Of a stretch of 64,000 bases of DNA, positions 3,799-56,085 are shown one piece after another. The DNA lies in NCBI GenBank assembly GCA_023253175.1, contig JALRHH010000002.1, positions 128,199-192,198 on the forward strand, written 5' to 3'. The DNA comes from Candidatus Saccharimonadia bacterium (lineage in GTDB: Bacteria; Patescibacteriota; Saccharimonadia; Saccharimonadales; JALRHH01). A program made the position numbers and the translations under genes. The notes beneath the pieces are model-generated. The model saw only the letters and a list, made by a program, of their open reading frames with translations. It had not been told where the DNA came from and searched no databases. How positions within the stretch are numbered: the stretch's first letter is position 1; the number at the start of each line of letters is the position of its first letter.

Positions 3799-4686
3799 CT
3801 AGCGGTCAGGATGCTCGAGTGCCAGGTACGTCTTATGGATTCGCATCTTCACGCCTTTTTGCACATCCACTATTGCGCCCGGGAAGAATGTCTTACCCGC
3901 AACGACTAATCTTTCGAGAGTCTTTTGATCAAAATCACGAATGCCCTGCTGCCTCAGCCATGCAGCCATGACTTCTCGGGAAACGGCATGAGATAGCCTG
4001 TTGAATTGGCGCCTATCAACCGTGCCCCCTTTTGATTGCAAGTGAAGAAAATGCAGCAGCTGCTCATCGAGATCATCGTTAACTTGGTGCATCCGTTTAA
4101 TAACCTCGCCGAGCCGCTGCCTGTCTTCCGGTGCAAGCTGCGGTAGAATTTTGTGCCGGATGTAATTTCTAAGCAACCGAATATCGGTATTCGTACTATC
4201 CTCGCGCCAAACAAGACCCTGGTCCTGCGCATAGCGGCGAATATCATCTTTTGCTATGTGCAGTATTGGTCGATGGATATTTGTCCGCGACCGAAGTGCA
4301 GTCAGGCCCTTCCTGTTTGTGCCGCGCAGCATATTAAGCACTGCTGTCTCAAGCGCATCGTTATGGTGATGGGCGGTAATAATAGCCTTAGCGCCACTCG
4401 CCCTCCGGACATTGTGCAAGAATTCATACCTTGCTCTACGGGCTACATCTTCACTCGCCGCTGGTCCTAGGTTGCCTTCGTGGTACACGAATGGAATACC
4501 GTACTGCTCAGAAGCGTGCTGCACAAGCTGCCTATCCAAATGTGAGTCACTCCGGATACCATGATCGAAATGGGCGGCAATAAGTTTTAGATCCGGCTGA
4601 TTTGCAAGCGCATGAAGTAGCGCCATACTGTCGACCCCACCCGACACGGCCACCACATATAACCCTGGCTGTACATCCACCTTCAT
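3799..4686 (-). CDS. tilS: tRNA(Ile)-lysidine synthase TilS
   Basis: PP-loop motif VAVSGGVDS near the N-terminus, and the conserved tilS-ftsH neighbourhood. Start placed at MKVDVQPG (ATG 4686) to avoid a 27-nt head-on overlap with the divergent gene. The track start 4737 is the alternative. Confidence 0.8.
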   Translation of the reverse strand: MKVDVQPGLYVVAVSGGVDSMALLHALANQPDLKLIAAHFDHGIRSDSHLDRQLVQHASEQYGIPFVYHEGNLGPAASEDVARRARYEFLHNVRRASGAKAIITAHHHNDALETAVLNMLRGTNRKGLTALRSRTNIHRPILHIAKDDIRRYAQDQGLVWREDSTNTDIRLLRNYIRHKILPQLAPEDRQRLGEVIKRMHQVNDDLDEQLLHFLHLQSKGGTVDRRQFNRLSHAVSREVMAAWLRQQGIRDFDQKTLERLVVAGKTFFPGAIVDVQKGVKMRIHKTYLALEHPDR

Positions 4687-4710
4687 ATCTGAAACAATTG
4701 TAGCATTATT

Positions 4711-5238
4711 ATGAAGACACTTTATTTTATGCGGCACGGATTAACCGAGATGAATGTCGCCGGCAAATGGTCGGGCAGAACCGAAACCTCTCTTACCCAA
4801 GAAGGACGAGACCAGGCAAAGCTTGCGGGCAAAGCTGCCAAAGATCTTTCTATTGATGCAATTGTCTGCTCAACGATGGGCCGCGCTGTAGAAACCGCCG
4901 AGATTGTGGCTAAGGAGATCGGTTACCCACTTGATCAAATACATAAGAGTAGCTTGCTCATCGAGCGAGATTTTGGCTCGTTCGAAGGCACGCCATGGCA
5001 ACCAGATCTGGACCTTGATGGATTTGCAGATGTGGAATCAGTGGATACCCTAAAAAACAGAGCGATCCTGGCCCTGGAATGGGTTGAATCAATCCCAGGC
5101 GATACTATACTGATTGTCAGCCACGGCGCGACCGGAAGAATGCTCCGCCATGTCGTCGATTCAAGTATCCCCTTCAAAGGAGCGAGTAGATTTAGCAATG
5201 CCGAGATCCACGAACTCAAGCGAACCCCAGAGGTTTAA
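4711..5238 (+). CDS. Histidine phosphatase (phosphoglycerate mutase) family protein
   Basis: Catalytic RHG motif (YFMRHGLTEMN) and distal SHG (IVSHGATGR). Confidence 0.8.
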   Translation: MKTLYFMRHGLTEMNVAGKWSGRTETSLTQEGRDQAKLAGKAAKDLSIDAIVCSTMGRAVETAEIVAKEIGYPLDQIHKSSLLIERDFGSFEGTPWQPDLDLDGFADVESVDTLKNRAILALEWVESIPGDTILIVSHGATGRMLRHVVDSSIPFKGASRFSNAEIHELKRTPEV

Positions 5239-5251
5239 GCCTGAAAAATAC

Positions 5252-5280
5252 TAGCCAACAGATGTAAAATCTGCTATATT
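5252..5280 (+). promoter_or_regulatory. Candidate sigma70-type promoter of the tRNA(CAT) locus
   Basis: TAGCCA (5252-5257), 17-nt spacer, TATATT (5275-5280). It lies 17 nt upstream of the first tRNA-derived base at 5297. Confidence 0.4.
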
Positions 5281-5325
5281 AACGGCTGATTCTCATGGCG
5301 GCGTAGCTCAGTTGGTTAGAGCGCA

Positions 5326-5443
5326 TTAATAATTCAGAATTTTTTTGGGGCGGCGTAGCTCAGTTGGTTAGAGCGCAGGACTCATAAGCCTGAGGTCACA
5401 GGTTCGAACCCCGTCGCCGCTACCAAAAAAGCGCTGAATTATT
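5326..5443 (+). repeat. Insert 1 of the dissected tRNA: inverted-repeat-bounded segment that carries the intact tRNA
   Basis: Perfect 11-bp inverted repeat TAATAATTCAG (5327-5337) / CTGAATTATTA (5434-5444). A T7 run (5340-5346) and an A-run (5425-5430) immediately flank the tRNA. Confidence 0.75.
5349..5425 (+). tRNA. tRNA with CAT anticodon (elongator Met or lysidine-dependent Ile2), CCA encoded
   Basis: Hand-folded cloverleaf: acceptor GGCGGCG/CGCCGCT, D arm GCTC-AGTTGGTTA-GAGC, anticodon loop CTCATAA, T arm ACAGG-TTCGAAC-CCCGT, then ACCA. There is one A-G mismatch at 31-39. Confidence 0.9.
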
Positions 5444-5673
5444 AGGACTCATATTCGAGGACGCGCGCAGGGGCTTGCGCCGAGCACGCCGCAAGAATAT
5501 ATGCAATATAAGCCTGTCGCGCCTTGCGCTCAGCATCTGTGATATATAAAGTTAACGCGTATTAGTTCGCCGACACCACTCACCCGTCCAATTAGCGTGA
5601 ACTCAGAAACTTCCCAAGTTTCTTCAGGTCACAGGTTCGAACCCCGTCGCCGCTACCATATAGAATATTTGTG

Positions 5674-5705
5674 AAAATGACGACTTTTTGGTCGTCATTT
5701 TTGTG
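5674..5705 (+). terminator. Intrinsic terminator after the tRNA locus
   Basis: Stem ATGACGAC (5677-5684) / GTCGTCAT (5691-5698), loop TTTTTG, followed by a T-run and preceded by an A-run. Confidence 0.7.
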
Positions 5706-5719
5706 TTTTTATACTACTT

Positions 5720-6736
5720 ATGGTGTTTAATATGCAATTCGTTTACAAAATAACAAGGATCGTTGCAAAGTATTTCAACCGGGCGTATATCAGAAGTAGG
5801 ACTTCTGAAGCCATGTCAGAGCTAAACAAACATTTAGAAACAATAAAAGGTCCCTTACTCACCGCTGGAATTGCCTCGGCAATTGGTGCGATTACCTTTA
5901 AAGCGGATCAATATTTCGGATCCAAAAGTGCCCACAGCGAACATGGGCCAGAATTAGACCTAGCGATTACCGAAAGACTAGGCGCCACCAAAACACTTGT
6001 CTTGCTTGGGGGCCTGTGTATGAATGGCGAGGAACTGGCATCGCAGTATCAAAAGGAGCTAGCAGATGACGTCAATCTCATTACGCCCGTATATGACAGT
6101 AATGGCTTCGACGGACCGTCGTTATTCGAGCAACTATATGACCAACTTGATAACACACCCACCGATGATATCGTCATCGCAGGCTTGTCTATGGGTGGCC
6201 TCATTGCTTGGGATATGATCGATTACGGTATAAAAAATGGCAGGCAGGACACGACCGAAAAGATATCTCATGTCATATTGCGCGGTGTGCCTGTTTGTCC
6301 AAAATCTATACGGCCCGGGCCGAGACTGTTACTCAACACAGTACAGCGCCTCGGCTACAGCTATGCACTCGATCATAGCCGACCCCTACTCCGCCGCTGG
6401 AACTGTGTCTCTCTACTCAAGGCAACACCCGCTGCGATTGTAGAACAGTGCAGATACCTCGCAGGCCCGCATACCAACAACCTAGAATCTTTACCGGATC
6501 AAGTAACTTTTGTGCGCGGAGTATTGCCGGATCCTGTCGTTGATGAAAGCATTGCAATCGGCACCTTGCAGCGACAGCTAGGCCGCCCGGTTCATGAAGT
6601 TATCGATAGTGAATACCTACTCCCTGTTCACGCGCCAACAGACAGACAGTCGGTGAGGTTCATGTTAGAGCAGCTCGGCATCGCCAAATCCCACACGCAG
6701 CAAATACCCGCTATTTCTCTACAAGTAGCAGCCTAG
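5720..6736 (+). CDS. Alpha/beta-hydrolase-fold protein (putative esterase/lipase); start uncertain
   Basis: Nucleophile-elbow motif GLSMGG within IVIAGLSMGGLIAW. Alternative starts are 5732 and 5813. Confidence 0.55.
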   Translation: MVFNMQFVYKITRIVAKYFNRAYIRSRTSEAMSELNKHLETIKGPLLTAGIASAIGAITFKADQYFGSKSAHSEHGPELDLAITERLGATKTLVLLGGLCMNGEELASQYQKELADDVNLITPVYDSNGFDGPSLFEQLYDQLDNTPTDDIVIAGLSMGGLIAWDMIDYGIKNGRQDTTEKISHVILRGVPVCPKSIRPGPRLLLNTVQRLGYSYALDHSRPLLRRWNCVSLLKATPAAIVEQCRYLAGPHTNNLESLPDQVTFVRGVLPDPVVDESIAIGTLQRQLGRPVHEVIDSEYLLPVHAPTDRQSVRFMLEQLGIAKSHTQQIPAISLQVAA

Positions 6737-13073: not shown

Positions 13074-13148
13074 CGCGGGGTAGAGCAGTGGCAGCTCGTG
13101 TGGCTCATAACCACAAGGTCGCAGGTTCGAGTCCTGCCCCCGCTACCA
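13074..13148 (+). tRNA. Initiator tRNA-fMet (CAT), CCA encoded
   Basis: 5' CGCGGGG with a C1-U72 mismatch, D arm GAGC-AGTGGCA-GCTC, anticodon loop CTCATAA, T arm GCAGG-TTCGAGT-CCTGC. Close resemblance to E. coli tRNA-fMet. Confidence 0.9.
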
Positions 13149-13183: not shown

Positions 13184-13231
13184 TTGGTCATGAAGCTGAT
13201 ACGGATCTGTGACCAACCAGCTTTAGCTGGC

Positions 13232-13321
13232 AAGGTCGTAGGTTCGGTCGACAAGCCTGCTCACAGGAATTCATTCCGAGAACAAGTGCAGTCGTGCGCT
13301 GCCTGCCCCCGCTATCACAGG
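13232..13321 (+). pseudogene. Broken duplicates of the 3' half of tRNA-fMet
   Basis: AAGGTCGTAGGTTCGGTC...CCTGC (13232-13260) and CCTGCCCCCGCTATCA (13302-13317) match the tRNA's AAGGTCGCAGGTTCGAGTCCTGCCCCCGCTACCA with 3 substitutions and inserted segments. Both parts are followed by TCACAGG. Confidence 0.6.
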
Positions 13322-13374
13322 CCTTTGACCCATGGAAATCAGGGTCTTTCTACTTTGTCTGCTATCATGTGCTT

Positions 13375-13908
13375 ATGGATGAAGAGCTAGTAGATATTCT
13401 TGATGATAGTGAAAATGTCTTGCGACAAGAGTTCAAAACAGAAGCCCATAAGCATGGATGGAAGCACAAAACGGTTATAGGTTACTTAAAGTTTGGCGAT
13501 GATTGGTCTTTAGTGAGGCAGGCAGCAGACAGACAAGATGCTGGTCAACTAGTTGCACCTGTCGGAGGTCACGTTAAAGCTGGTGAAGCAGAGATAGATG
13601 CCCTACTGCGTGAAGCAGAAGAAGAGATTGGTACTCGCAACATTACATATAAATATGTAGGCAGCAAGGTTTTTCATCGCAGTATTATCGGTAGAGACGA
13701 GAACCATTTATTCGCCATCTATGAGATAGGAACAGACGACCCTATTGTACTCAACGAAGAGTCAGTCGCGATCGAACGATTTAAGCCAGAAGAATTAAAG
13801 AAAGCCCTCGATGAACATCCTGAAAATTTTGGGGATGCTTATTATTTCGTTCTCGAATCCTTTTATCCAGATTATTTACCTGCAGGTTATACTAAGCGCT
13901 GGTCCTAG
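13375..13908 (+). CDS. Nudix hydrolase
   Basis: Nudix box GGHVKAGEAEIDALLREAEEEIGT. Start moved to MDEELV (13375), because the track start 13294 lies inside the tRNA-fragment region. Confidence 0.75.
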   Translation: MDEELVDILDDSENVLRQEFKTEAHKHGWKHKTVIGYLKFGDDWSLVRQAADRQDAGQLVAPVGGHVKAGEAEIDALLREAEEEIGTRNITYKYVGSKVFHRSIIGRDENHLFAIYEIGTDDPIVLNEESVAIERFKPEELKKALDEHPENFGDAYYFVLESFYPDYLPAGYTKRWS

Positions 13909-14076
13909 ATTGTAGTAGAGTCATTTATTTACTTGATCGCTAGACAAGCCTAGCTTTGCAGTACTTATCTCTTTAAATACTCAACGTTATACTTAAGAGA
14001 AAAATATTACAGAGCTTTATTACGGTTATCAGTTAAATACAGTGGTGGTACGCGCTAACACTGGAGAATTTCTTTT

Positions 14077-14604
14077 ATGATTCGGCCATACTCGCTCGAC
14101 AAGCCTTTGGCGGCGCTGGTTGCAAAATTACCCAGATCTATTAAGCCATTGATGGACTTTGGATCATTTATTGCCGCCCCTATTCCGATGGCGTGCATTT
14201 TACTCGTGTATATACTCTCCTCTTTCATCAGAGCAGATTATGATTACGTACATTTGTATGTATTAGTCGTACTTGCCGCCCCTATCGCAGAGCTGTCGAA
14301 ATTTATTACTCGCAGGAAACGACCTGAAACACTTTATGCAGAACAGATGCGCTTTAAGACATACAGTTTTCCAAGTGGACATACCTATATTGCAACTTTG
14401 GTGTTTGGATTTTTGACGATCGTATTTGGTAATCTCCATACCTTTGGCTTGATCATAGCAACATTACTTGTGCTACTAATTTTTATGGTCGGGGTTTCGA
14501 GAGTATATTTAGGCGCGCATTTTCCAAGTGATGTCATTGCAGGATGGCTGCTTGGAGGCATGATATTATTTACGGTCAGTGCTGTAGAAGGAGTGCTATT
14601 TTGA
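14077..14604 (+). CDS. PAP2 family phosphatase (lipid phosphate / undecaprenyl-diphosphate phosphatase type)
   Basis: Tripartite PAP2 motif: KFITRRKRP, PSGHT, SRVYLGAHFPSD. Confidence 0.85.
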   Translation: MIRPYSLDKPLAALVAKLPRSIKPLMDFGSFIAAPIPMACILLVYILSSFIRADYDYVHLYVLVVLAAPIAELSKFITRRKRPETLYAEQMRFKTYSFPSGHTYIATLVFGFLTIVFGNLHTFGLIIATLLVLLIFMVGVSRVYLGAHFPSDVIAGWLLGGMILFTVSAVEGVLF

Positions 14605-15494
14605 CAAACAAAGGCAAAAAACAATACGTTCTTGTCGTAAACCTTAAATCAAGGCAGTCTGCGGAGGCTATTGATAAAGTTGAAGAGCTTTTCATGAGTA
14701 GAGATGTACTGCTGAAGGTCATAAAAGTAAAAAATCCAAGACGTATTAAAGAGGCATTCGAGGAAGCGCTCAGTGCTAACGCTGATACGATAATTCTTGG
14801 CGGCGGTGATGGAACCTTAATCAGTGGGATAGAATATTTGTCACTGAAAGACTACCAGAAACCAATCGGCCTACTTCCACTCGGCACCGCTAATTATCTG
14901 GCGCGCAATCTCGATATTCCACTCGATCTTGACGGTAGTATTGAAAATCTTTTGAATGGCTCGACTCGTCTTATTCCTATTGGCGTAGCAAATGATAAAT
15001 TCTTTGCGCTGACATTTATCGTTGGATTAACGCAGAAAGTTGCAGCAGAAGTTTCCGACAACCTTAAACGTAAGTTTGGGCAACTCGCATACATATTAGA
15101 ACTTATTAAACAGACAAGGAAACATAAAGCTTTTAGGTATACGATTGAATCCCCTGATCTGAAAAAGCCCCTCAAAGGACTGACGCATCAGATCATTGTG
15201 TACAATTCTGATATTAACCTTCAGCTAAAGTTAGTGCCGGATCATAGCCTGGAACGCACATCACTCAAAGTGGTGGTCATTAAGTGCGGCAAGAGTAAAT
15301 TCAAACTCTATGTAGGATTTTTAGTTCACATACTCACTGCAGGAAAGCTAAAGCCATACATGAAAGTTTTCGAGACACAGTCTCTCAAGATAACCACAGA
15401 TCCAGTACTGGCCGCAGACTATGATGGTGAACCATACAATCACAGCCCTTTCAATGTAGAACTATATAAAAGAAAAGTGCACATCATCTGCTAA
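14601..15494 (+). CDS. Lipid kinase, diacylglycerol-kinase catalytic-domain family (YegS/BmrU-like)
   Basis: Motifs ILGGGDGTL and LPLGTANYLARNL. Proposed TTG start at 14601 overlaps the PAP2 stop (TTGA), and SD GAAGGAG lies 7 nt upstream. Confidence 0.8.
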   Translation: MTNKGKKQYVLVVNLKSRQSAEAIDKVEELFMSRDVLLKVIKVKNPRRIKEAFEEALSANADTIILGGGDGTLISGIEYLSLKDYQKPIGLLPLGTANYLARNLDIPLDLDGSIENLLNGSTRLIPIGVANDKFFALTFIVGLTQKVAAEVSDNLKRKFGQLAYILELIKQTRKHKAFRYTIESPDLKKPLKGLTHQIIVYNSDINLQLKLVPDHSLERTSLKVVVIKCGKSKFKLYVGFLVHILTAGKLKPYMKVFETQSLKITTDPVLAADYDGEPYNHSPFNVELYKRKVHIIC

Positions 15495-15632
15495 AAAGTC
15501 AGTTTTTATCCATACCACCATATATAGCGTGTGGATAACAGCTACACTACACCGCTACGGAAATTTTTACTGCACAAAGTCTCATGAAGGCGCATGCTAG
15601 TAGAACCATAGACCTAATTAAAGGAGGCGCAT

Positions 15633-15827
15633 ATGGCTAATAACAATCGTGGATTCGCATCAATGGACGAGAACAAGCAAAAGGAAATCGCGAGCATGGG
15701 TGGTCAAGCTAGCAGTGGTAATTTCAAGAATGACCCACAGCGAGCAAGTAAAGCCGGTAAAAAAGGAGCCGAGGCGCAACCTACCGAGGCAAAGCAACGA
15801 GGCGGACAGAATAGTCACCGCAGCTAG
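15633..15827 (+). CDS. KGG-repeat general stress protein (YciG-like)
   Basis: GNFKNDPQRASKAGKKG and RGFASMD..KQKEIASMGG match the YciG/KGG stress-protein repeats. SD AAAGGAGG precedes the start. Confidence 0.8.
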   Translation: MANNNRGFASMDENKQKEIASMGGQASSGNFKNDPQRASKAGKKGAEAQPTEAKQRGGQNSHRS

Positions 15828-15848
15828 CTTCTAATTCCTATACACGAG

Positions 15849-15878
15849 AGGAGGCTCTTCTGAGTCTCCTTTTTATTT
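15849..15878 (+). terminator. Intrinsic terminator
   Basis: Stem AGGAGGCTC / GAGTCTCCT, loop TTCT, then TTTTTATTT. Confidence 0.7.
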
Positions 15879-15937
15879 CTTGTGAAAAATCCCCTTGACA
15901 GCCACTATCCCCAGACAACTCTGATAGGATATTCTCC

Positions 15938-16786
15938 CTAAAATTCAGGGATAGGGGCATCTAGCAAATTGTTCTTTGTACTTTCTTCGTCATCCATGAC
16001 AGGCCGCTCTTGCCCGACCGTACGTGATCTCTCAGCATCAATTCCATCCCGCAGTGTATCAAGCTCTTGGCGGCGTTTTCTTTTGAGCATGTTGTTCTCT
16101 GCTGCCTCAAGGAGTGATCCATTGAACCTGTTCTGCAGGACTATTGATAAGCTGCCCAGTGCAAGTGCAGCAGACGAAACAAACTCATCATCAGTGCTGG
16201 ATTCGGGATGCATAAATCTACCGAATGTACTGTGCAACCTCTCAAGTGCATACCTACCATCAGAAATGAGCCTCAGCGGGCCTTTTGCATAGGACGGCTC
16301 CCTCAGAACAATATGCAGGCCGTCTTCAAACGGGGCAAAATCCCACATTTTCCACGTAAGATAGTCGGGTCTGTACGTCTCGGGTACCCGTCCGCCCATC
16401 TGATCAACCAAGACTCTATCTAGCCCTCCGATACTCTCATCCCAGGTCCAGGCATTTGTGCCCGAGTAGTGTTCTACCGCTTCTCGCGCAATATCCCTCA
16501 GTGCAATGTTTCGTAAAGCGCCAGCTGCCGTAATGTAGTAAAGTACGTCGCCGGCTTCTGAGATCTTATCAGCATCAAGCTGCTCCGAAACACTCTGGTC
16601 AACTTCAATGCCCCATAATTTTGAAGTTAGTTCCAACGGATATCGCTCGTCCGTTAATAATTCACCAACTTCTTCATTAAATCCCTGGTGTACAATCTTA
16701 AGCTGCTCTTTTTCTGATTCAGCCCCCAGAAAGAATGCCGTGTTACGGGCATCGTACGCGTAGTCATCAAAAGTAAGCTTGTTCAC
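15938..16786 (-). CDS. Hypothetical protein with N-terminal MazG-like NTP-pyrophosphohydrolase fold
   Basis: EEVGELLTDE ... EAGDVLYYI spacing resembles the MazG EExxE...D motif. The C-terminal half is unassigned. Confidence 0.45.
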   Translation of the reverse strand: MNKLTFDDYAYDARNTAFFLGAESEKEQLKIVHQGFNEEVGELLTDERYPLELTSKLWGIEVDQSVSEQLDADKISEAGDVLYYITAAGALRNIALRDIAREAVEHYSGTNAWTWDESIGGLDRVLVDQMGGRVPETYRPDYLTWKMWDFAPFEDGLHIVLREPSYAKGPLRLISDGRYALERLHSTFGRFMHPESSTDDEFVSSAALALGSLSIVLQNRFNGSLLEAAENNMLKRKRRQELDTLRDGIDAERSRTVGQERPVMDDEESTKNNLLDAPIPEF

Positions 16787-16965
16787 TAAGTTATATTAAA
16801 CAATAAGAAGCTCATATAACCATGAGCGGCTCGTGCTAATTTGTCGATGCCTAGTCTTCCTTGGCACAAAGTATATGTCATAATATGAGATTAGTTACTT
16901 GTCAATATCTCCTGTATAGTTAATACCAGAAGTAATCAAACTACGACTCGCGAGGAGTACACAAT

Positions 16966-44110: not shown

Positions 44111-45652
44111 CTATTTTATTTCTATGTCTTCGCCGAAGTGTTTTTCTAGTCTCTTTTTGATGCTGCCTGGATGGCGGCCGAAATGATTACTTAACATGTT
44201 AAGTGTTTCTTTGTTTTCAAATCTTGACTTCAACTCTTCATCGTCCGCTTCTTTCCACGGCATGTAGGCATTTGGGAATTCTTCGCGCATTTTGGCGAGC
44301 TTTTCCGACCAATCAGATTTTGGCTTTTCAGGTACCTCTTCTTCTGGCTGATCCTTTCGCTTTTCCTCGTCCTGGTGCCACTTTTCAATGACCGCAGCAT
44401 AGGTTGCCAGCGCATCATCGCTGCGTTTCCGCAGTTCACTGTCAATTTGCCTTGCGAGCGGGCTTGTCTTTAGTGCCATACCATTCAGTCCATCCAGCGC
44501 CAGCTGTTTCATGCTCTTCACACGAGAAAGCGCAACATACCCCATGCCTTCGACAAACGCGCGGCGCAGGTCAATATGTGCTGCATCCAACGTCATGCCC
44601 TGGCTCTTGTGCACTGTGATCGCCCATGCAAGGCGAATTGGTAGCTGCGTCAGTGTTGCCCGGCGCTTGTCGCCATCAACGAGCTCCCAAGTCTCAGGTG
44701 AAATCGTTAGCTTGCGGCCATTATTTAGTTGCACAATTGGATACTCAGTTTCATCATCAAACCCTACCACCACACCAAGCGATCCATTCACGTATTTGCG
44801 GTCCTGGCTGTTTTTAATACACATGACGTGCGCGCCTTTTTTCAGGAACAGAACTTCGGGCGCCAAGCATGATCGCATTAACTGCTCTACATATTTTTTG
44901 CCGCCACTTGTTTCCATGCTGTATTCGTACATGTCACCATCAAGTCTCTGCAGTTCGCCGTCATTAATGCGATCAACATCAGCATTGGTTGTCAGCAACC
45001 TTGTACGAGGCGTGAATGGATCAAGGGCAACTTCAATCCTATCCTGCAGAGCGGTTAGTTGATTACGCGTCAGTACGCCGCCACGGATGCCGTTTAGGAT
45101 TTGGGCATAGGTGTCGTCTTCACTCTGACGATACTGCTTCTCCAGGTAGCAGACTGCAAAATCCCCATCTTGCCATGCACTCGAAGACAGCACAAAACTA
45201 CCACTGCGGCCCTCTGATCGGTTTACTGGAGGCAACTGGAAGAAATCACCGACCAGCACGACCTGTAGCCCGCCAAACGGCTCGGCATTTCCGCGGACGT
45301 ACCGAGTAACTTCCTCGATCATGTCCAACCGAAAGTCATGGAGCATACTGATCTCGTCGATAATTAGAATATCTGCCTTGGCTATCAAACCTTGCCGCTG
45401 CTTACCAAGCTTCTGAAAAAAGAGCTGCGGAAGCTCGTCATGTACACCGATGCCTGCCCATGCATGAATAGTGGCACCGTTCAGGTGCGTCGCAGCCAGT
45501 CCGGTCGTGGCTGTTACGGCGATGCTCTTGCCCCGGCGTTTGCTACGACGAATAAACTCATTCATGAGATACGTCTTACCGGTACCAGCTGCACCTGTTA
45601 ACAGGACCGACTGGCCCGACTCTAAAATAGCTAAAGCTTCTGCCTGCGTCAT
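44111..45652 (-). CDS. PIF1/RecD-type superfamily-1 DNA helicase
   Basis: Walker A LLTGAAGTGKTY, Walker B ILIIDEISM, LVGDFFQLPPV, and C-terminal ITVHKSQGMT motifs. Confidence 0.85.
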   Translation of the reverse strand: MTQAEALAILESGQSVLLTGAAGTGKTYLMNEFIRRSKRRGKSIAVTATTGLAATHLNGATIHAWAGIGVHDELPQLFFQKLGKQRQGLIAKADILIIDEISMLHDFRLDMIEEVTRYVRGNAEPFGGLQVVLVGDFFQLPPVNRSEGRSGSFVLSSSAWQDGDFAVCYLEKQYRQSEDDTYAQILNGIRGGVLTRNQLTALQDRIEVALDPFTPRTRLLTTNADVDRINDGELQRLDGDMYEYSMETSGGKKYVEQLMRSCLAPEVLFLKKGAHVMCIKNSQDRKYVNGSLGVVVGFDDETEYPIVQLNNGRKLTISPETWELVDGDKRRATLTQLPIRLAWAITVHKSQGMTLDAAHIDLRRAFVEGMGYVALSRVKSMKQLALDGLNGMALKTSPLARQIDSELRKRSDDALATYAAVIEKWHQDEEKRKDQPEEEVPEKPKSDWSEKLAKMREEFPNAYMPWKEADDEELKSRFENKETLNMLSNHFGRHPGSIKKRLEKHFGEDIEIK

Positions 45653-45748: not shown

Positions 45749-47110
45749 ATGAACGTTTTTATGGATCGTATTCACGGTACGGAGATGGAATGGGGAGCAA
45801 TGGTGGTCCACCCCAAGCAGAGTATGCAATTCCAGCTTAACGGCAATGTCCTCGAGGATCATGTCAAAGAAGCGATGACCAAAAATGGAACTGCTTTCAT
45901 CGGCCGAAATAATGACCACTATCTAGAAAATGGAGCACGTCTTTATCGTGATGGCTACGAGCGCTGGGAATATGCCACTCCGGAAGATATATCTTATGCA
46001 GGCACAACCGCAAACGAGTTTGCGGGCGAACGTTATTTAGCAGACACTGCCGCCCTGTACAAAGAAGAGACGGGGAATAATATTTCGTTTACTAAGCGAG
46101 TTATTGATGATAAGGAACGAAGCTGCGGGTATCACGTCAGCTATTGCCTAGACGCCAAAAAAGTTAAGATCACCGAGGATGCGCTTGCCTTGTATGGCGT
46201 ATTTGCGGCCACTAGAAGTGTGGTATTTGGATCAGGCGCTCTGCTCCCTGGCGGAAAATTCATACTCGGCCAAAAGGCGTTTACTGCAAACTGCGATTAT
46301 AGCCCCCACACCATACGCCAAAAGCCAGTTGTTAACCTCAGGGATGAACCTCTTGCAAACCCTGATAAATTTACCCGTTTTCATGACACCCTAATTGATC
46401 CGAGCATGTCCCCCTGGTCATCACGTGTAAAGATTGCGGCCGGATCGATTGTTGCTCGTATGGTTGAGGCCAACGAACACATGCCCTGGCTCAGGTTCGA
46501 CAGCCCGCTTTGTCTGGTTGCCCGCAATACCAGTGCCGATAACAGGCTTGCACTTCAACATCGACTCATCAGTGGCAACTACATATCTGCCATTGATGTA
46601 CAGCAAATTATAGTAAAACACGCTCGACACCTTGCAGAAGAGAGCACTATCAGCTTGAACGATGAAGAACAATGGGCACTCGAAGAGTGGGAGGGCGCGC
46701 TCAAAGACTTGGCGCAAAATCCCGCACTTACTAACAGAAGAATAGAGTGGATTGATAGGCTGAAAATCCTGGACCGCCAGCACGAAAGGCATGGATACGG
46801 CTGGGATAGCGAGTATTTGCGCTACAAGGACAGGCAGTTTAGTGAAATTGCCACTCAAGGAATAGCTAAGGCGCTCCGGGAAACTATCTGGTCAGAATAC
46901 ATGCCAGAAAATTCACTCATTAAAGAAAGAATGCATCGTCCACCCGCAACGCGGGCAGCCATTAGGGGCAGGTTTATACAGAAAGTAGCAGACCGGCCCA
47001 ATGCTAACTTATCAAGAATTATGTGGAGTAATATTCGATACAGGGGCGTGGACTATCAACTGTCCGACCCGTATCAGTCCACCGACCAAGACCTTGATGC
47101 TATTGCGTAA
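45749..47110 (+). CDS. Pup-ligase/deamidase family protein (PafA/Dop homolog)
   Basis: [53 protein letters not shown] and [12 protein letters not shown] align with M. tuberculosis PafA segments [51 protein letters not shown] and TTRARLRGEFI, recalled from memory. Alternative start 45761 (MDRIHG). Confidence 0.8.
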   Translation: [453 protein letters not shown]

Positions 47111-54264: not shown

Positions 54265-55836
54265 TTACGCTGCCAGAGTAAAAATTGACGGCTTTTGTTG
54301 GGCCTTCGGTTTCTTCTTTGGTTCAATAATTTTTGAGTCTACCTTCTTAAAACCACAGCCACAGAACGCATCTGATGTTTCAGCATTGTAATAAACCTTT
54401 CCTATGCTTTTGCAGCCAGGACACCAAGCCTTATCATATGAGACAAGCTTGCTTAATTCAGAAGGCTTAATGCCAAGCTCACGTGCCGCCGCTAAATCCT
54501 CTATGCTATTTGGGTCAGCTGCCTTAAGCCCGCAGGCTCCGCCGGCACAACCACCGCCAACCTTAACATCTTGACTAGCGATCGATCGATCGATTTCGTT
54601 TAGATTACTCATTGATGTCATTACAGAATTTACATCTTCGTGAGCAGCTTGCTTAATTCGCTGTACAGTCTGAGTATCAACCTGATCAATCACCTTAACG
54701 TTATCTGTCACAATTCCAGCCTTTGTCGCAATAATATTTCGCTTTGCCTTTTCAACTAAAGCTGCGAGCTCCCTGGTCATGATATATCTAGTACCCCGCC
54801 TGTGACTCTCTACTCTTTGTTTAATGTAATCTTCCCACTCTTGTGAAACATTATCTATAAAGCTTGTTACAGCGTCCGTGCTCATACCTTGTTCAAGGCT
54901 CGCCGCGAGCTCCAGAGATGATTCATACCATTCCTGTGAGAAAAACTTTGCTTTCTCCTCATATAGACATTGATCCTGACGGAAACGCTCAAGCTGGGAC
55001 TTTACAGAATCTCTTATGTCTTGATCGTGAATATAGGGCAAAACCGAAGAAACAATTGTCACTGGGCCTTCTTGAACCTGCTCTAGTGGCAACTCGAGCT
55101 CACTGAAAGCCTCCATGACAGATAGTGCGGAACCTTTATCCTCTAACTGGATCGATTTGCTAAATATATTCTGATCGTCTTCAAGCATTGCTACCCATGC
55201 ATCAAGTGGTATGTCGCGGACCAGCAGCGACTCCATCACTCTATAAGATTCATTTCCATGGCTATCTGTTAACAGGTAGGACGCTCGTATAGAGTCTTCT
55301 TCGTGCAAGTGCTCCGCGGCAGCAATATATGCAGGCGCATCAGTGTCAGACATGCGTGGTGATATGAAGAATTGTACGCGTCCGGGCTGCAATGTTTCCT
55401 GCGTATGGATAGCTTCAGCAACCTCAATATCAACCCGCTTAGCTGCTTGCTTTGAAAAATGAAAATCGTAACCACTCTCTGCAACGCTAGTAGCCGTACG
55501 CCCCAGCCAGCGGAAGACACGTTCCATTTTTTGAGCCTCCGGAATATATACCTGCTCCACTCTGTGCGCTGTGCGCGTCACTGCGTACGGCATTGCGATT
55601 TCGCTAAGCGCTGTTTGCTTGTTAACCAACACGTCGTCTCTAATCTCGTTAGGTACATACCCGAACTCTTTGAGAGATGATGCAAGGTGGTCAACCTCCG
55701 TCAATAAGCGGCTGATCTCAATATCGGGCAGAACTTCACTACCATCAATGGTAGCCTGCAACGTCTCGACACTAGCTACAGATACCACTCTCGGGGTTTC
55801 TTGACTTAAGGCGGCTAGCTCGACCACTGATTCCAT
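54265..55836 (-). CDS. Hypothetical protein with C-terminal cysteine cluster
   Basis: Start placed at MESVV (55836), with SD GAGGG 7 nt upstream. The C-terminus has GGGCAGGACG and WCPGCKS...FCGCGF motifs. Confidence 0.6.
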   Translation of the reverse strand: MESVVELAALSQETPRVVSVASVETLQATIDGSEVLPDIEISRLLTEVDHLASSLKEFGYVPNEIRDDVLVNKQTALSEIAMPYAVTRTAHRVEQVYIPEAQKMERVFRWLGRTATSVAESGYDFHFSKQAAKRVDIEVAEAIHTQETLQPGRVQFFISPRMSDTDAPAYIAAAEHLHEEDSIRASYLLTDSHGNESYRVMESLLVRDIPLDAWVAMLEDDQNIFSKSIQLEDKGSALSVMEAFSELELPLEQVQEGPVTIVSSVLPYIHDQDIRDSVKSQLERFRQDQCLYEEKAKFFSQEWYESSLELAASLEQGMSTDAVTSFIDNVSQEWEDYIKQRVESHRRGTRYIMTRELAALVEKAKRNIIATKAGIVTDNVKVIDQVDTQTVQRIKQAAHEDVNSVMTSMSNLNEIDRSIASQDVKVGGGCAGGACGLKAADPNSIEDLAAARELGIKPSELSKLVSYDKAWCPGCKSIGKVYYNAETSDAFCGCGFKKVDSKIIEPKKKPKAQQKPSIFTLAA

Positions 55837-56085
55837 AAAAATACCCTCATTCTCTGATGCGAAAATGAGGGGACTAAAATACTTAGGCACTTCACTCTTG
55901 CTCGAGAGATTTTATCGCTGTATCGGACTTTAACCGTTGCGGCACAGTTCAGGAATTTCACCTGCTTCCAGCTCTATGTTTTTGTAAAAGTTACGCTTAT
56001 CTTATCACGAAAATAGGACGCTAGATGTAGTAGTATACGCTACAGCTAGTGCCCTATTTGTATGTCATACACCAGGGGTGGTGTA

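What the first reader, a model, noticed from the sequence alone, without database searches (positions are those of the whole stretch)
5297..5658. Intact tRNA(CAT) nested inside a base-perfect second copy of itself that is cut into four pieces at the borders of the anticodon arm
Seen directly: the 77-nt tRNA at 5349-5425 is reproduced a second time, with no mismatch, by four colinear fragments that surround it. These are 5297-5325 (nt 1-29), 5444-5453 (nt 29-38), 5508-5516 (nt 36-44) and 5626-5658 (nt 45-77, including CCA). The three interruptions (118, about 54 and 109 nt) fall at canonical tRNA positions 27/28, 37/38 and 43/44. They therefore isolate the two strands of the anticodon arm. Position 37/38 is the classical archaeal/eukaryal tRNA intron site. 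The only good promoter (5252-5280) precedes the outer 5' piece, and the only intrinsic terminator (5674-5705) follows the outer 3' piece. The whole 362-nt unit, including the intact inner tRNA, is therefore probably one transcript. The absence of any substitution across the outer pieces argues against an old, freely decaying pseudogene. I see three possible explanations. (a) It is a multi-intron bacterial tRNA gene whose first intron carries a functional tRNA, which would be unprecedented for bacteria as far as I know. (b) The resident gene was hit by small insertions, one of which brought its own replacement copy. (c) It is an assembly artefact of tandem tRNA repeats.
Basis: partly seen in the sequence, partly recalled or inferred. 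Interest (0 to 1): 0.9.

Follow-up and report, generated by a model that had tools for sequence, protein, structure and literature searches.

The report
tRNA gene nested inside its relic
In this Saccharibacteria genome the working methionine tRNA gene sits inside the cut-up remains of a second copy of itself; the arrangement is real and shared with distant relatives, where the outer copy is damaged or decayed, so it looks like an old insertion scar and not a bacterial multi-intron tRNA gene.

Summary
tRNA-Met(CAT) at 5349-5425 is surrounded by four colinear, mismatch-free pieces of itself (nt 1-29, 29-38, 36-44, 45-77). It is not an assembly artefact. The junctions recur in other assemblies of this strain, and the same nested layout, with the same junctions, occurs in two distant Candidatus Saccharibacteria lineages (L013, L017).

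These relatives change the interpretation. The inner unit is a leader-tRNA-trailer module whose leader and trailer form a conserved ~21-bp helix. It also occurs alone behind the same promoter (L016). The outer copy is damaged in L013 (2-nt deletion, T-stem mismatch) and heavily decayed in L017. Insert 3 is present only in the window. No bulge-helix-bulge motif, group I or group II intron signature was found.

Best reading: an old insertion brought a replacement tRNA-Met unit into the resident gene. Only the inner tRNA works, using the outer promoter and terminator. The outer pieces are relics that gene conversion keeps similar in some lineages. In other lineages they decay or are lost by recombination.

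Unexplained: the two short pieces and part of insert 2 are conserved although neutral sites are saturated, so an RNA role for the outer shell is not excluded. Interest is moderate.

The parts
5252..5280 (+). Promoter of the whole unit (TAGCCA-17-TATATT with an upstream TG)
   Evidence: Found by the scan. The block ACTAGCCAACAG..ATAAAATCTG.TATATTA is conserved in window, L013, L016, L017 and L023 (alignment A2).
5281..5296 (+). Short outer leader (..GATTCTCAT) between the promoter and the outer 5' piece
   Evidence: Homologous to the leaders of uninterrupted genes and outer copies in relatives: GTTATTCAT in L013 and GTTCTTTAT in L028.
5297..5325 (+). Outer piece 1 = tRNA nt 1-29 (acceptor 5' strand, D arm, first bases of the anticodon stem)
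   Evidence: Exact 29/29 match. The orthologous piece is 26/26 plus a 2-nt deletion in L013. It is decayed in L017, with 5 substitutions and a 2-nt insertion.
5326..5348 (+). Leader L (TTAATAATTCAGAATTTTTTTGG), the 5' strand of the leader-trailer helix
   Evidence: At least 20/23 conserved in four lineages. It pairs with the trailer, including the CC of CCA: 21 pairs and 2 compensatory changes.
5349..5425 (+). Inner, intact tRNA-Met(CAT), elongator type, CCA encoded. This is the functional gene.
   Evidence: ARAGORN and Rfam, 64.5 bits. It is present in all relatives.
5426..5443 (+). Trailer T (AAAAAGCGCTGAATTATT), the 3' strand of the leader-trailer helix
   Evidence: The same trailer follows the tRNA in L011, L013, L016 and L017.
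5444..5453 (+). Outer piece 2 = tRNA nt 29-38 (anticodon stem 5' strand and loop with CAT)
   Evidence: Exact match. Identical in L013 and mutated in L017 (AGGACTTAATA).
5454..5507 (+). Insert 2 (54 nt) in the anticodon loop of the outer copy
   Evidence: Homologous insert of the same length in L013: 35/54 identical, last 10 nt 10/10. The 5' 42 nt are kept in L017. Folding energy does not differ from shuffles, z = -0.5. No Rfam match.
5508..5516 (+). Outer piece 3 = tRNA nt 36-44 (rest of the loop and anticodon stem 3' strand)
   Evidence: Exact match. Identical in L013, where it runs straight into nt 45-77. Deleted in L017.
5517..5625 (+). Insert 3 (109 nt), specific to the window lineage
   Evidence: Absent from L013 and L017. 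No homologue in the window or in any fetched locus. A colinear resemblance to insert 2, piece 3 and piece 4 is not significant, p = 0.17.
5626..5658 (+). Outer piece 4 = tRNA nt 45-77 including CCA
   Evidence: Exact 33/33 match. In L013 the match is 31/33, with outer-specific T-stem bases that L017's outer copy shares.
5670..5705 (+). Intrinsic terminator of the unit. It overlaps the probable promoter of the downstream hydrolase-like gene.
   Evidence: Scan: 16-pair stem followed by a T run. 48-87 nt here are 100% identical in relatives whose ORF is 76-88% identical.

Best explanation
The locus is an old insertion scar built around the cell's elongator tRNA-Met gene. It has two layers.

(1) The inner unit (5326-5443) consists of leader, tRNA and trailer. 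The leader and trailer form a conserved ~21-bp helix that extends the acceptor stem. This unit is the only functional gene.

(2) The outer layer is the resident copy of the same gene. The inner unit split it at the start of the anticodon stem. A 54-nt insert split it again in the anticodon loop. In this lineage only, a 109-nt insert split it a third time, after the anticodon stem.

The inner gene has no promoter or terminator of its own. The whole unit is read from the resident promoter (5252-5280) to the resident terminator (5670-5705) as one precursor of about 420 nt. The inner tRNA is then cut out by ordinary end-processing: RNase P at 5349, and a 3' cut in the trailer, perhaps after cleavage of the leader-trailer helix. 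The outer pieces are not spliced together.

The outer pieces match the inner gene perfectly here because the two copies evolve in concert. This is most likely gene conversion across the 29- and 33-nt repeats. In other lineages the same arrangement has decayed (L017). It has also collapsed by recombination between the repeats into a plain gene (L023, L028; possibly the L006 variant), or lost the outer pieces by deletion (L016, L011).

Shown: the anatomy, its antiquity, the helix, the defects of the outer copy in relatives, and the concerted changes. Inferred: the single transcript, the processing route, gene conversion as the homogenising mechanism, and insertion as the origin.
For: Same layout and same junctions in three deep lineages:
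- window;
- L013, a GTDB Saccharibacteria MAG with TilS 60% aa identity;
- L017, seen in four assemblies.
Four-fold degenerate sites are saturated between all of them, at 29-43% identity.

The inner unit occurs alone directly behind the same promoter in L016, and its trailer follows the tRNA in L011. The leader-trailer helix has 21 pairs. Over the whole leader-trailer plus cloverleaf structure 92.9% of cells are paired, against 33-47% in slid controls; the long stem that holds the helix is 93.8% paired and has 2 compensatory pairs in the leader-trailer part.

The outer copy is defective elsewhere:
- L013 lacks 2 nt at the end of piece 1, has a G.G clash in the T stem, and fails ARAGORN at default settings when spliced in silico.
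- L017 has 5 substitutions and a 2-nt insertion in piece 1, a mutated anticodon loop and a deleted piece 3.
- Insert 3 exists only in the window.

Concerted evolution: the D-loop T and six T-arm changes specific to the window clade are present in both copies. In L013, the last 24 nt of outer piece 4 equal the inner copy, while the T-stem 5' strand keeps AGTG, which L017's outer copy also has. This looks like a partial conversion tract on an old, orthologous outer copy.

Plain genes in the outer context exist in L023, whose neighbouring ORF is 81% identical to L017's, and in L028. A 52-nt deletion variant between the 29-nt repeats exists in this very strain.

Other split 3' fragments of tRNAs lie just downstream of two further tRNA genes in these genomes. 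They start at the variable loop or T stem and are interrupted in the T stem or loop. tRNA-associated insertion scars are therefore common here.

No BHB motif and no intron or other RNA family.
Against: Pieces 2 and 3 (19 nt) and the last 10 nt of insert 2 are identical between the window and L013, although neutral sites are saturated. The rest of insert 2 is 57% identical. Pieces this short should not be reachable by gene conversion, so some constraint, or a younger shared origin, is implied.

The arrangement has persisted with near-perfect repeats in two lineages although the repeats invite deletion.

No integrase, transposase or remnant of a larger element lies in the window: about 50 ORFs were scanned. 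No second copy of any insert exists. The inserting agent is therefore unknown.

The leader is conserved in sequence, not only in pairing.

Only three nested loci were available, and no RNA data.
Confidence: 0.55

Rival explanations
1. The outer shell is itself a selected, functional RNA. The outer pieces fold into a tRNA-like body (acceptor stem, D arm, T arm) whose anticodon arm is replaced by the leader-trailer helix and the insert-2 hairpin. Once the inner tRNA has been cut out, the two remaining halves stay annealed through that helix and the acceptor stem. The result would be a two-piece tRNA mimic with some role in processing, stability, regulation or protein binding. It would not be spliced into a tRNA.
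For: Pieces 2 and 3 and the 3' end of insert 2 are unchanged between the window and L013 despite saturated neutral sites.

The anticodon CAU pairs with an AUG in the conserved TATATGCAAT, and next to it a UU/AA pair of positions is swapped to AA/UU in L013.

The partition function predicts that outer-outer acceptor pairing (0.83) and inner-inner pairing (0.96) coexist, with no swapped pairing.

The layout resembles archaeal split tRNA halves joined by a complementary trailer and leader (PMC4090602).
Against: The outer copy is heavily decayed in L017 and absent in L016, L023 and L028. Whatever it does is therefore dispensable.

Insert 2 and insert 3 fold no better than shuffles. The consensus structure rests on two sequences only. 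The only Rfam hint, YrlA, scores 16 bits with E = 1.2, is seen in L013 only and is far below threshold. A lineage-specific 109-nt insert is tolerated.
Confidence: 0.2
2. The inner unit, together with piece 2 and insert 2, is a cassette that still spreads between Saccharibacteria. It could spread by natural transformation, with the conserved tRNA halves acting as homology arms, or through an unidentified recombinase. On this view the outer pieces are perfect in the window simply because the invasion there is recent. They would be older in L013 and oldest in L017.
For: Nested, inner-only and outer-only forms are patchily distributed on the tree of the neighbouring ORF.

The inner tRNAs of L013 and L017 are identical (77/77), whereas L017's close relative L023 differs at 5 positions.

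Other tRNA genes in these genomes carry fragment scars, and a 3.7-kb block is inserted next to the initiator tRNA.

The archaeal precedent has a 5' tRNA fragment, a mobile element and a complete tRNA (PMC3293823).
Against: The outer copies of L013 and L017 share outer-specific T-stem bases (AGTG). The outer copy was therefore inherited together with the inner one, not taken afresh from each host.

The window's inner tRNA carries the T arm of its own clade (L007, L008, L010), so it is not foreign.

No extra copies, no recombinase and no hit in viral or phage collections.
Confidence: 0.12
3. It is a true multi-intron bacterial tRNA gene. The three inserts are introns that are removed and the exons ligated, giving a second source of tRNA-Met. 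The inner tRNA would be an intron-encoded gene.
For: In the window the four pieces reconstitute the tRNA perfectly.

The interruption sites (about 28/29, 37/38 and 44/45 in sequence numbering) resemble archaeal non-canonical and canonical intron positions (PMC4090602).

The leader and trailer are complementary, as in split tRNA genes.

With insert 1 removed in silico, ARAGORN can model the rest as an intron-containing tRNA.
Against: No strict BHB motif within 3 nt of any junction in the window or L013, and relaxed motifs are no more frequent than chance.

Inserts of 54-118 nt are too short for group I or II introns, and Rfam finds none even at E <= 10.

The L013 exons lack 2 nt and break the T stem, and the L017 exons are destroyed. 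Insert 3 is not conserved.

No EndA-like or RtcB-like gene occurs in the 64 kb. The product would duplicate the inner tRNA.
Confidence: 0.03
4. It is an assembly artefact of repeated tRNA sequence.
For: Short-read contigs break inside the 33-nt repeat. One contig lacks the 52-nt repeat unit.
Against: The unit is identical in an independent MEGAHIT contig. The junctions 5325/5326 and 5348/5349 are reproduced in two Logan runs. The same layout appears in other species assembled with SPAdes and Logan. The diverged but homologous inserts in those species cannot be produced by misassembly.
Confidence: 0.01

Closest known systems
Partial tRNA duplications left by integrative elements (attL/attR scars at the anticodon-loop and T-loop sublocations of tRNA genes; established knowledge, Williams 2002 classification, cited from memory)
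   Same: An intact tRNA is followed by a direct repeat of its 3' part. That repeat begins at the 5' strand of the anticodon stem (nt 29) and runs to the 3' end. The interruption falls in the anticodon loop. Two other tRNAs in these genomes carry the T-arm version of the same pattern.
   Different: No integrase or element DNA is present. Only 18-200 nt lie between the repeats. There is also a 5' fragment upstream. The insertion carries a complete tRNA with its own leader-trailer helix. The layout is conserved across lineages with saturated synonymous sites.
Caldiarchaeum subterraneum tRNA-Thr(GGU) locus: a 5' tRNA fragment, a 1.8-kb mobile element and a complete tRNA gene (Sugahara et al. 2012, PMC3293823)
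   Same: A 5' fragment of the resident tRNA gene is left upstream of a complete replacement copy of the same tRNA. [quoted passage not shown] Alleles are heterogeneous within a natural population.
   Different: That case is archaeal and has a recombinase-encoding element and BHB-type introns. Here the organism is a bacterium, the intervening DNA is 23 nt, no recombinase is present, and the 3' part of the old gene also remains, giving a nested layout.
Archaeal multi-intron and split tRNA genes (Thermoproteales, Nanoarchaeum, Caldivirga; review PMC4090602)
   Same: Interruptions fall near 29/30, 37/38 and 45/46. Complementary sequences lie next to the 5' and 3' halves. A functional RNA can be nested in a tRNA intron, as with the box C/D RNA in tRNA-Trp.
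   Different: The defining BHB motif is absent. No splicing endonuclease is known or seen. The exons are not conserved in relatives. An intact copy of the same tRNA sits inside.
[quoted passage not shown] 2026, PMC13011429)
   Same: The same phylum-level group is involved, and the insertions lie in the anticodon loop of tRNA genes that standard annotation misses.
   Different: The inserts here are 54-118 nt and give no match to any intron model in Rfam. They have no U.G/omega-G style boundaries. tRNA-Met is not mentioned in that paper.
Leader-trailer processing stems of bacterial rRNA operons (RNase III substrates; established knowledge)
   Same: A long helix, about two turns, is formed by sequences flanking the mature RNA. 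It encloses the RNA and is conserved with covariation.
   Different: Here the helix encloses a single tRNA and pairs with the CC of the encoded CCA. Cleavage by RNase III is only inferred.

Membership tests
Bacterial tRNA gene (inner copy 5349-5425) | Cloverleaf with conserved D and T elements, detected by covariance model and by ARAGORN | tested here: met
   Rfam RF00005 at 64.5 bits against a gathering score of 29. ARAGORN calls tRNA-Met(cat). An orthologue is present in every relative.
Archaeal/eukaryal-type protein-spliced tRNA intron | Bulge-helix-bulge motif (4-bp helix flanked by two 3-nt bulges) at the exon-intron junctions | tested here: not met
   A custom scan covered both BHB arrangements within +/-3 nt of each junction. 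There were no strict hits for the three inserts of the window or the two of L013. Relaxed hits numbered 1 in total, while 39% of shuffles give at least one.
Archaeal/eukaryal-type protein-spliced tRNA intron | Exons that reconstitute a functional tRNA and are conserved among relatives | tested here: not met
   The window exons are perfect. The L013 exons lack 2 nt, carry a T-stem clash and fail ARAGORN at default settings. The L017 exons are not recognisable.
Archaeal/eukaryal-type protein-spliced tRNA intron | Splicing endonuclease (EndA) and RNA ligase (RtcB) encoded in the genome | tested here: inconclusive
   Neither is among about 50 ORFs of the 64-kb window. The rest of the genome is not available.
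Group I / group II self-splicing intron | Match to the intron covariance models and a catalytic core of at least ~200 nt | tested here: not met
   The inserts are 118 nt (77 of which are the tRNA), 54 nt and 109 nt. Rfam finds no intron family at E <= 10 in the window or L013.
Integrase-mediated integration scar at a tRNA gene | Direct repeat of the tRNA 3' part that starts at the anticodon stem or T stem and runs to the 3' end | tested here: met
   Pieces 2-4 together equal nt 29-77. T-arm analogues lie downstream of the window's initiator tRNA and of L017's Ile2-type tRNA.
Integrase-mediated integration scar at a tRNA gene | Integrase gene and element DNA between the repeats | tested here: not met
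   Only 18 nt (the trailer) separate the intact tRNA from piece 2. No integrase or transposase domain was found in the window. Viral and phage collections gave no related sequence.
Decaying tRNA pseudogene (outer copy) | Disabling changes accumulate independently of the functional copy | tested here: inconclusive
   Met in L017 and partly in L013. Not met in the window, with 81/81 identity. Pieces 2 and 3 are unchanged between the window and L013 despite saturated neutral sites.
Multi-copy miniature mobile element (MITE-like) carrying the tRNA | Terminal inverted repeats plus further copies in the genome | tested here: not met
   Leader and trailer are inverted repeats. However, the motif AAYAATTCAGAA occurs only at this locus in the window and in all fetched loci. 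The one 11-nt match, at 16654, lies inside a coding ORF.

The most novel reading that the evidence does not exclude
The nested layout is maintained by selection because the precursor yields two products. One is the inner tRNA-Met. The other is a two-piece tRNA-like RNA made of the outer halves, which stay annealed through the leader-trailer helix and the acceptor stem and carry the conserved insert-2 hairpin, in which the anticodon is paired to an AUG. This would be a bacterial counterpart of archaeal split tRNAs or of tRNA-mimicking Y-like RNAs, and it would work without splicing.
Probability: 0.17. Interest if true: 0.85.

Novelty: new variant of a known kind. Interest (0 to 1): 0.55.

Why it matters
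If the main reading is right, this is a clear bacterial example of how a tRNA gene becomes disrupted and is rescued by a replacement copy delivered inside it. It also shows how such a redundant, repeat-laden structure then evolves: by concerted evolution, decay, or collapse. All these states can be seen side by side in one small clade.

That bears on the long-running debate about the origin of split and intron-containing tRNA genes, which has so far been argued from archaeal examples.

It also identifies a conserved ~21-bp leader-trailer helix around the single elongator tRNA-Met of these reduced genomes. That helix points to an unusual maturation route.

There is a practical consequence: the repeats break short-read assemblies at this essential gene.

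If the minority reading is right and the outer shell is functional, it would be a new class of tRNA-derived RNA in bacteria.

Tried and rejected
- Assembly artefact: rejected.
- BHB introns: a custom scan gave no strict motif.
- Group I/II or any known RNA family: Rfam at E <= 10 on the window and L013 returned only the tRNA. A YrlA hit of 16 bits in L013 alone is treated as noise.
- Structured-RNA test of the inserts: z-scores of -0.5, +0.4, -0.4 and -1.4, none significant.
- Conserved small ORF in the unit: none in six frames of three lineages.
- Multi-copy element: no other copy of insert 2, insert 3, the leader or the trailer in the window or in 30 loci. The 11-nt leader match at 16654 lies inside a coding ORF.
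- Insert 3 as an older decayed copy of insert 2, piece 3 and piece 4: the alignment is colinear but p = 0.17, and 0.09 against L013, so the idea was not adopted.
- Mobile-element source:
  - Two DNA patterns and the neighbouring protein family were searched in viral contigs. This gave nothing, or four chance hits in AT-rich coding DNA.
  - blastn of the unit against 50,697 phage records gave only generic tRNA hits.
  - No integrase or transposase was found in the window.
- T-box-like or attenuator role for the downstream gene: dropped. The downstream ORF most likely starts at ATG 5813, the invariant M32, and has its own TATACT box at 5710-5715.
- Literature: no description of a nested tRNA-Met locus in Saccharibacteria or Patescibacteria was found in three searches.
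Full report
**1. The observation**

- The 77-nt tRNA-Met(CAT) at 5349-5425 is detected by ARAGORN and by Rfam at 64.5 bits.
- It is reproduced without mismatch by four pieces: 5297-5325 (nt 1-29), 5444-5453 (nt 29-38), 5508-5516 (nt 36-44) and 5626-5658 (nt 45-77).
- The overlaps (A; ATA) make the first two break points ambiguous by 1 and 3 nt.
- The two short pieces would arise by chance in this interval with p = 1.8e-4.
- A promoter-like site at 5252-5280 and a strong terminator-like hairpin at 5670-5705 bracket the unit, and no comparable signal lies inside it.

**2. It is not an artefact**
- A MEGAHIT contig from ENA sample ERZ27267698 is identical over 7 kb, including the whole unit.
- Logan contigs from runs SRR14560446 and SRR14560403 reproduce the outer 5' piece, the leader and the start of the inner tRNA, and end inside the inner tRNA.
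- A contig from SRR14560443 starts inside the outer 3' piece. This is what a k=31 graph does at a 33-nt repeat.
- A short contig from sample ERZ27267633 (L006) is identical over 2,668 nt, except that the 52 nt comprising outer piece 1 and the leader are missing. This is either a real deletion between the 29-nt direct repeats or a low-coverage collapse. I cannot tell which.

**3. Context and organism**

The neighbours are murJ, ftsH and tilS (minus strand), then a histidine-phosphatase gene, the tRNA unit, an alpha/beta-hydrolase-like ORF and a NUDIX gene.

The hydrolase-like ORF belongs to a small family of 22 clusters. The only named genome carrying it is an uncultured Candidatus Saccharibacteria MAG.

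The window holds three tRNA-CAT genes. By sequence features, 13074 is the initiator, 25591 is the lysidine-type Ile2, and the gene studied here is the elongator tRNA-Met (the assignment is my inference from acceptor and anticodon-arm features).

**4. Relatives change the picture**

Contigs around homologues of the neighbouring ORF gave the same locus, behind the same conserved promoter, in several lineages (alignment A2).

(a) L013, the Saccharibacteria MAG (TilS 60% aa identity), has the same nest:
- outer piece 1 (26 nt, with 2 nt deleted at its end);
- leader TTAACAATTCAGAACATTTTTGG;
- the intact tRNA;
- trailer AAAATGTTCTGAATTGT;
- AGGACTCATAA;
- a 54-nt homologue of insert 2;
- ATAAGCCTG running straight on into nt 45-77, with no insert 3.

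(b) L017 was recovered in four assemblies made with two assemblers. It has the same junctions, but its outer copy is decayed:
- piece 1 has 5 substitutions and a 2-nt insertion;
- the anticodon loop reads CTTAATA;
- the 3' end of insert 2 and piece 3 are deleted;
- piece 4 is barely recognisable.

(c) L016 has only the inner unit (leader, tRNA, trailer) directly behind the promoter and in front of the terminator. L011 has the inner-type trailer followed by the terminator.

(d) L023 and L028 have a plain tRNA in the outer context, with no helix and no pieces. L023's ORF is 81% identical to L017's.

On a tree of the neighbouring ORF, the nested form sits in three deep branches interleaved with the simple forms. 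Four-fold degenerate sites in tilS, the phosphatase gene and ftsH are saturated between all these lineages, at 29-43% identity. The nest is therefore old. The alternative is that it has moved between lineages.

**5. What each part is**

*Inner unit.* Leader and trailer form a helix of 21 pairs that continues the acceptor stem and includes the CC of the encoded CCA. Over the whole leader-trailer plus cloverleaf structure, 92.9% of cells are paired in the four lineages, against 33-47% when the partner strand is slid; the long stem that holds the helix is 93.8% paired, with two compensatory pairs in its leader-trailer part. The helix is peculiar to this tRNA: the other two tRNA-CAT genes have nothing like it. 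Because the unit also occurs without any outer pieces (L016), it is a self-sufficient gene module.

*Outer copy.* It carries the promoter, a short leader homologous to that of the plain genes (GATTCTCAT, GTTATTCAT, GTTCTTTAT), and the terminator. It is therefore the resident gene, and the inner unit lies within it.

All simple forms can be derived from the nest:
- The outer-only form arises by recombination between the 29-nt and the 33-nt direct repeats.
- The inner-only form arises by two small deletions that share TTA and AG microhomologies with the junctions in L016. This derivation is my inference.

**6. Is the outer copy a spliced gene?**

The evidence says no.
- A scan for both BHB arrangements within 3 nt of every junction found no strict motif in the window or in L013. 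Relaxed motifs occurred no more often than in shuffles.
- Rfam finds no intron or other family even at E <= 10, and the inserts are far too short for group I or II introns.
- Spliced in silico, the L013 outer copy is not called a tRNA at default ARAGORN settings, and the L017 copy is not called at all.
- ARAGORN in intron mode sees only the inner gene in the native sequences.
- Insert 3 is confined to the window lineage and has no homologue anywhere.
- No EndA-like or RtcB-like protein is among about 50 ORFs in the window. This is weak evidence, because the rest of the genome is unseen.

**7. Why the outer copy is perfect here**

The outer and inner copies share lineage-specific changes:
- The D-loop T and the six T-arm differences that distinguish the window clade from L013 are present in both copies of the window.
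- In L013, the last 24 nt of outer piece 4 equal the inner copy. The 5' strand of the T stem keeps AGTGG. That strand is AGTGC in L017's outer copy and ACTAG in both inner copies.

This is the signature of an old, orthologous outer copy that is intermittently overwritten by the inner one, i.e. gene conversion. Once identity falls too low for conversion, decay follows (L017). The mechanism is inferred; the pattern is shown.

**8. What does not fit**

Piece 2, piece 3 and the last 10 nt of insert 2 (29 nt in all) are identical between the window and L013. The other 44 nt of insert 2 are 57% identical, and neutral coding sites are saturated. Pieces of 9-10 nt flanked by non-homologous DNA should not be reachable by conversion.

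In both lineages the anticodon CAU can pair with the AUG of the conserved TATATGCAAT, and next to it UU/AA has become AA/UU. This suggests constraint on an RNA hairpin built on the old anticodon arm.

Against that:
- the inserts fold no better than shuffles;
- the consensus rests on two sequences;
- the whole stretch is mutated or deleted in L017.

I therefore keep a functional outer shell as the main rival (0.2) and describe it as the most novel reading not excluded. A thermodynamic model predicts that inner-inner (0.96) and outer-outer (0.83) acceptor pairings coexist in the precursor, and that the helix helps the inner fold. This is compatible with both readings.

**9. Origin**

I found no inserting agent: no integrase or transposase, no further copies, and nothing in viral or phage collections.

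However, tRNA-fragment scars are a theme in these genomes:
- The initiator tRNA of the window is followed by a split copy of its nt 41-77, at the start of a 3.7-kb block that relatives lack.
- An Ile2-type tRNA in L017 is followed by a split copy of its nt ~44-76.

The fragment starts (anticodon stem; variable loop or T stem) and the interruption points (anticodon loop; T stem or loop) are the classical integrase sublocations. This rests on my knowledge of the Williams classification, not on a test here.

The nearest published parallel is the Caldiarchaeum tRNA-Thr locus, where a 5' fragment, a mobile element and a complete tRNA gene were read as a snapshot of tRNA gene disruption (PMC3293823). 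[quoted passage not shown]

**10. Verdict**

The locus is a new variant of a known kind: tRNA gene disruption with partial duplication. Four features are unusual.
- It is a bacterial case.
- The replacement gene is nested inside the old one.
- It has a conserved leader-trailer helix.
- It has lasted long enough to show concerted evolution, decay and collapse in sister lineages.

Interest is moderate (0.55). It would rise sharply if RNA data showed a stable or spliced product of the outer pieces.

Noticed in passing
window 13231-13318 (and 13195-16872): About 85 nt downstream of the initiator-type tRNA-CAT (13074-13148) lies a split copy of its 3' part. It consists of nt 41-56 (15/16), a 53-nt insert, then nt 60-77 with one mismatch. 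It opens a 3.7-kb block (NUDIX, PAP2, DAGK-like, unknown ORF; no integrase) that relatives L008 and L009 lack.
   Followed up: partly
L017 7960-8000 (minus strand), downstream of tRNA c8134-8209: An Ile2-type tRNA-CAT is followed, after a terminator and about 115 nt, by TGTCGAAGG, a 10-nt insert, its nt 55-76 and the same ATT trailer. This is another split 3' tRNA fragment in a Saccharibacteria genome.
   Followed up: partly
L006 1133 (equivalent to window 5297-5348): A contig from a second sample of the same project is identical to the window over 2,668 nt, except that the 52 nt comprising outer piece 1 and the leader are absent. This could be a deletion between the 29-nt direct repeats or an assembly collapse.
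   Followed up: partly
window 5349-5425: The elongator tRNA-Met has a G1.U72 top pair and an A31.G39 mismatch, both conserved in all relatives. In the window clade only, it also has an A51.C63 mismatch in the T stem. The window-clade T arm looks like a mosaic of the outer-type and inner-type T arms seen in L013 and L017.
   Followed up: partly
window 5667-5716 and ORF 5720-6736: The terminator plus a TATACT box are 100% identical over 48-87 nt in relatives whose downstream ORF is only 76-88% identical. The ORF (alpha/beta-hydrolase-like, GLSMGG motif, family of only 22 clusters) probably starts at ATG 5813, because M32 is invariant.
   Followed up: partly
L007 57-890: In the closest other species (ORF 88% identical), an insert of about 830 nt lies between the tRNA-Met and the old terminator. 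It has its own terminator and an AAA_17/AAA_18 kinase-like gene. The spot downstream of this tRNA is therefore an insertion hotspot.
   Followed up: no
window 3799-4737, 5349, 13074, 25591: All three tRNA-CAT genes (elongator Met, initiator, Ile2-like) and tilS lie within about 22 kb.
   Followed up: no
window 55910-55989 (minus strand): An AdoCbl-II riboswitch (39.5 bits, above the gathering score) lies upstream of a 541-aa ORF (54265-55890) that has no Pfam match.
   Followed up: no
window 45749-47110 and 44111-45652: A Pup-ligase family protein (E = 3e-66) and a PIF1-like helicase are encoded in this Saccharibacteria window.
   Followed up: no
L013 2357-2454: There is a weak Rfam hit to YrlA (Y RNA-like, a tRNA mimic) over the outer 5' piece and the leader: 16 bits, E = 1.2, far below threshold and absent from the window. 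It was treated as noise.
   Followed up: no
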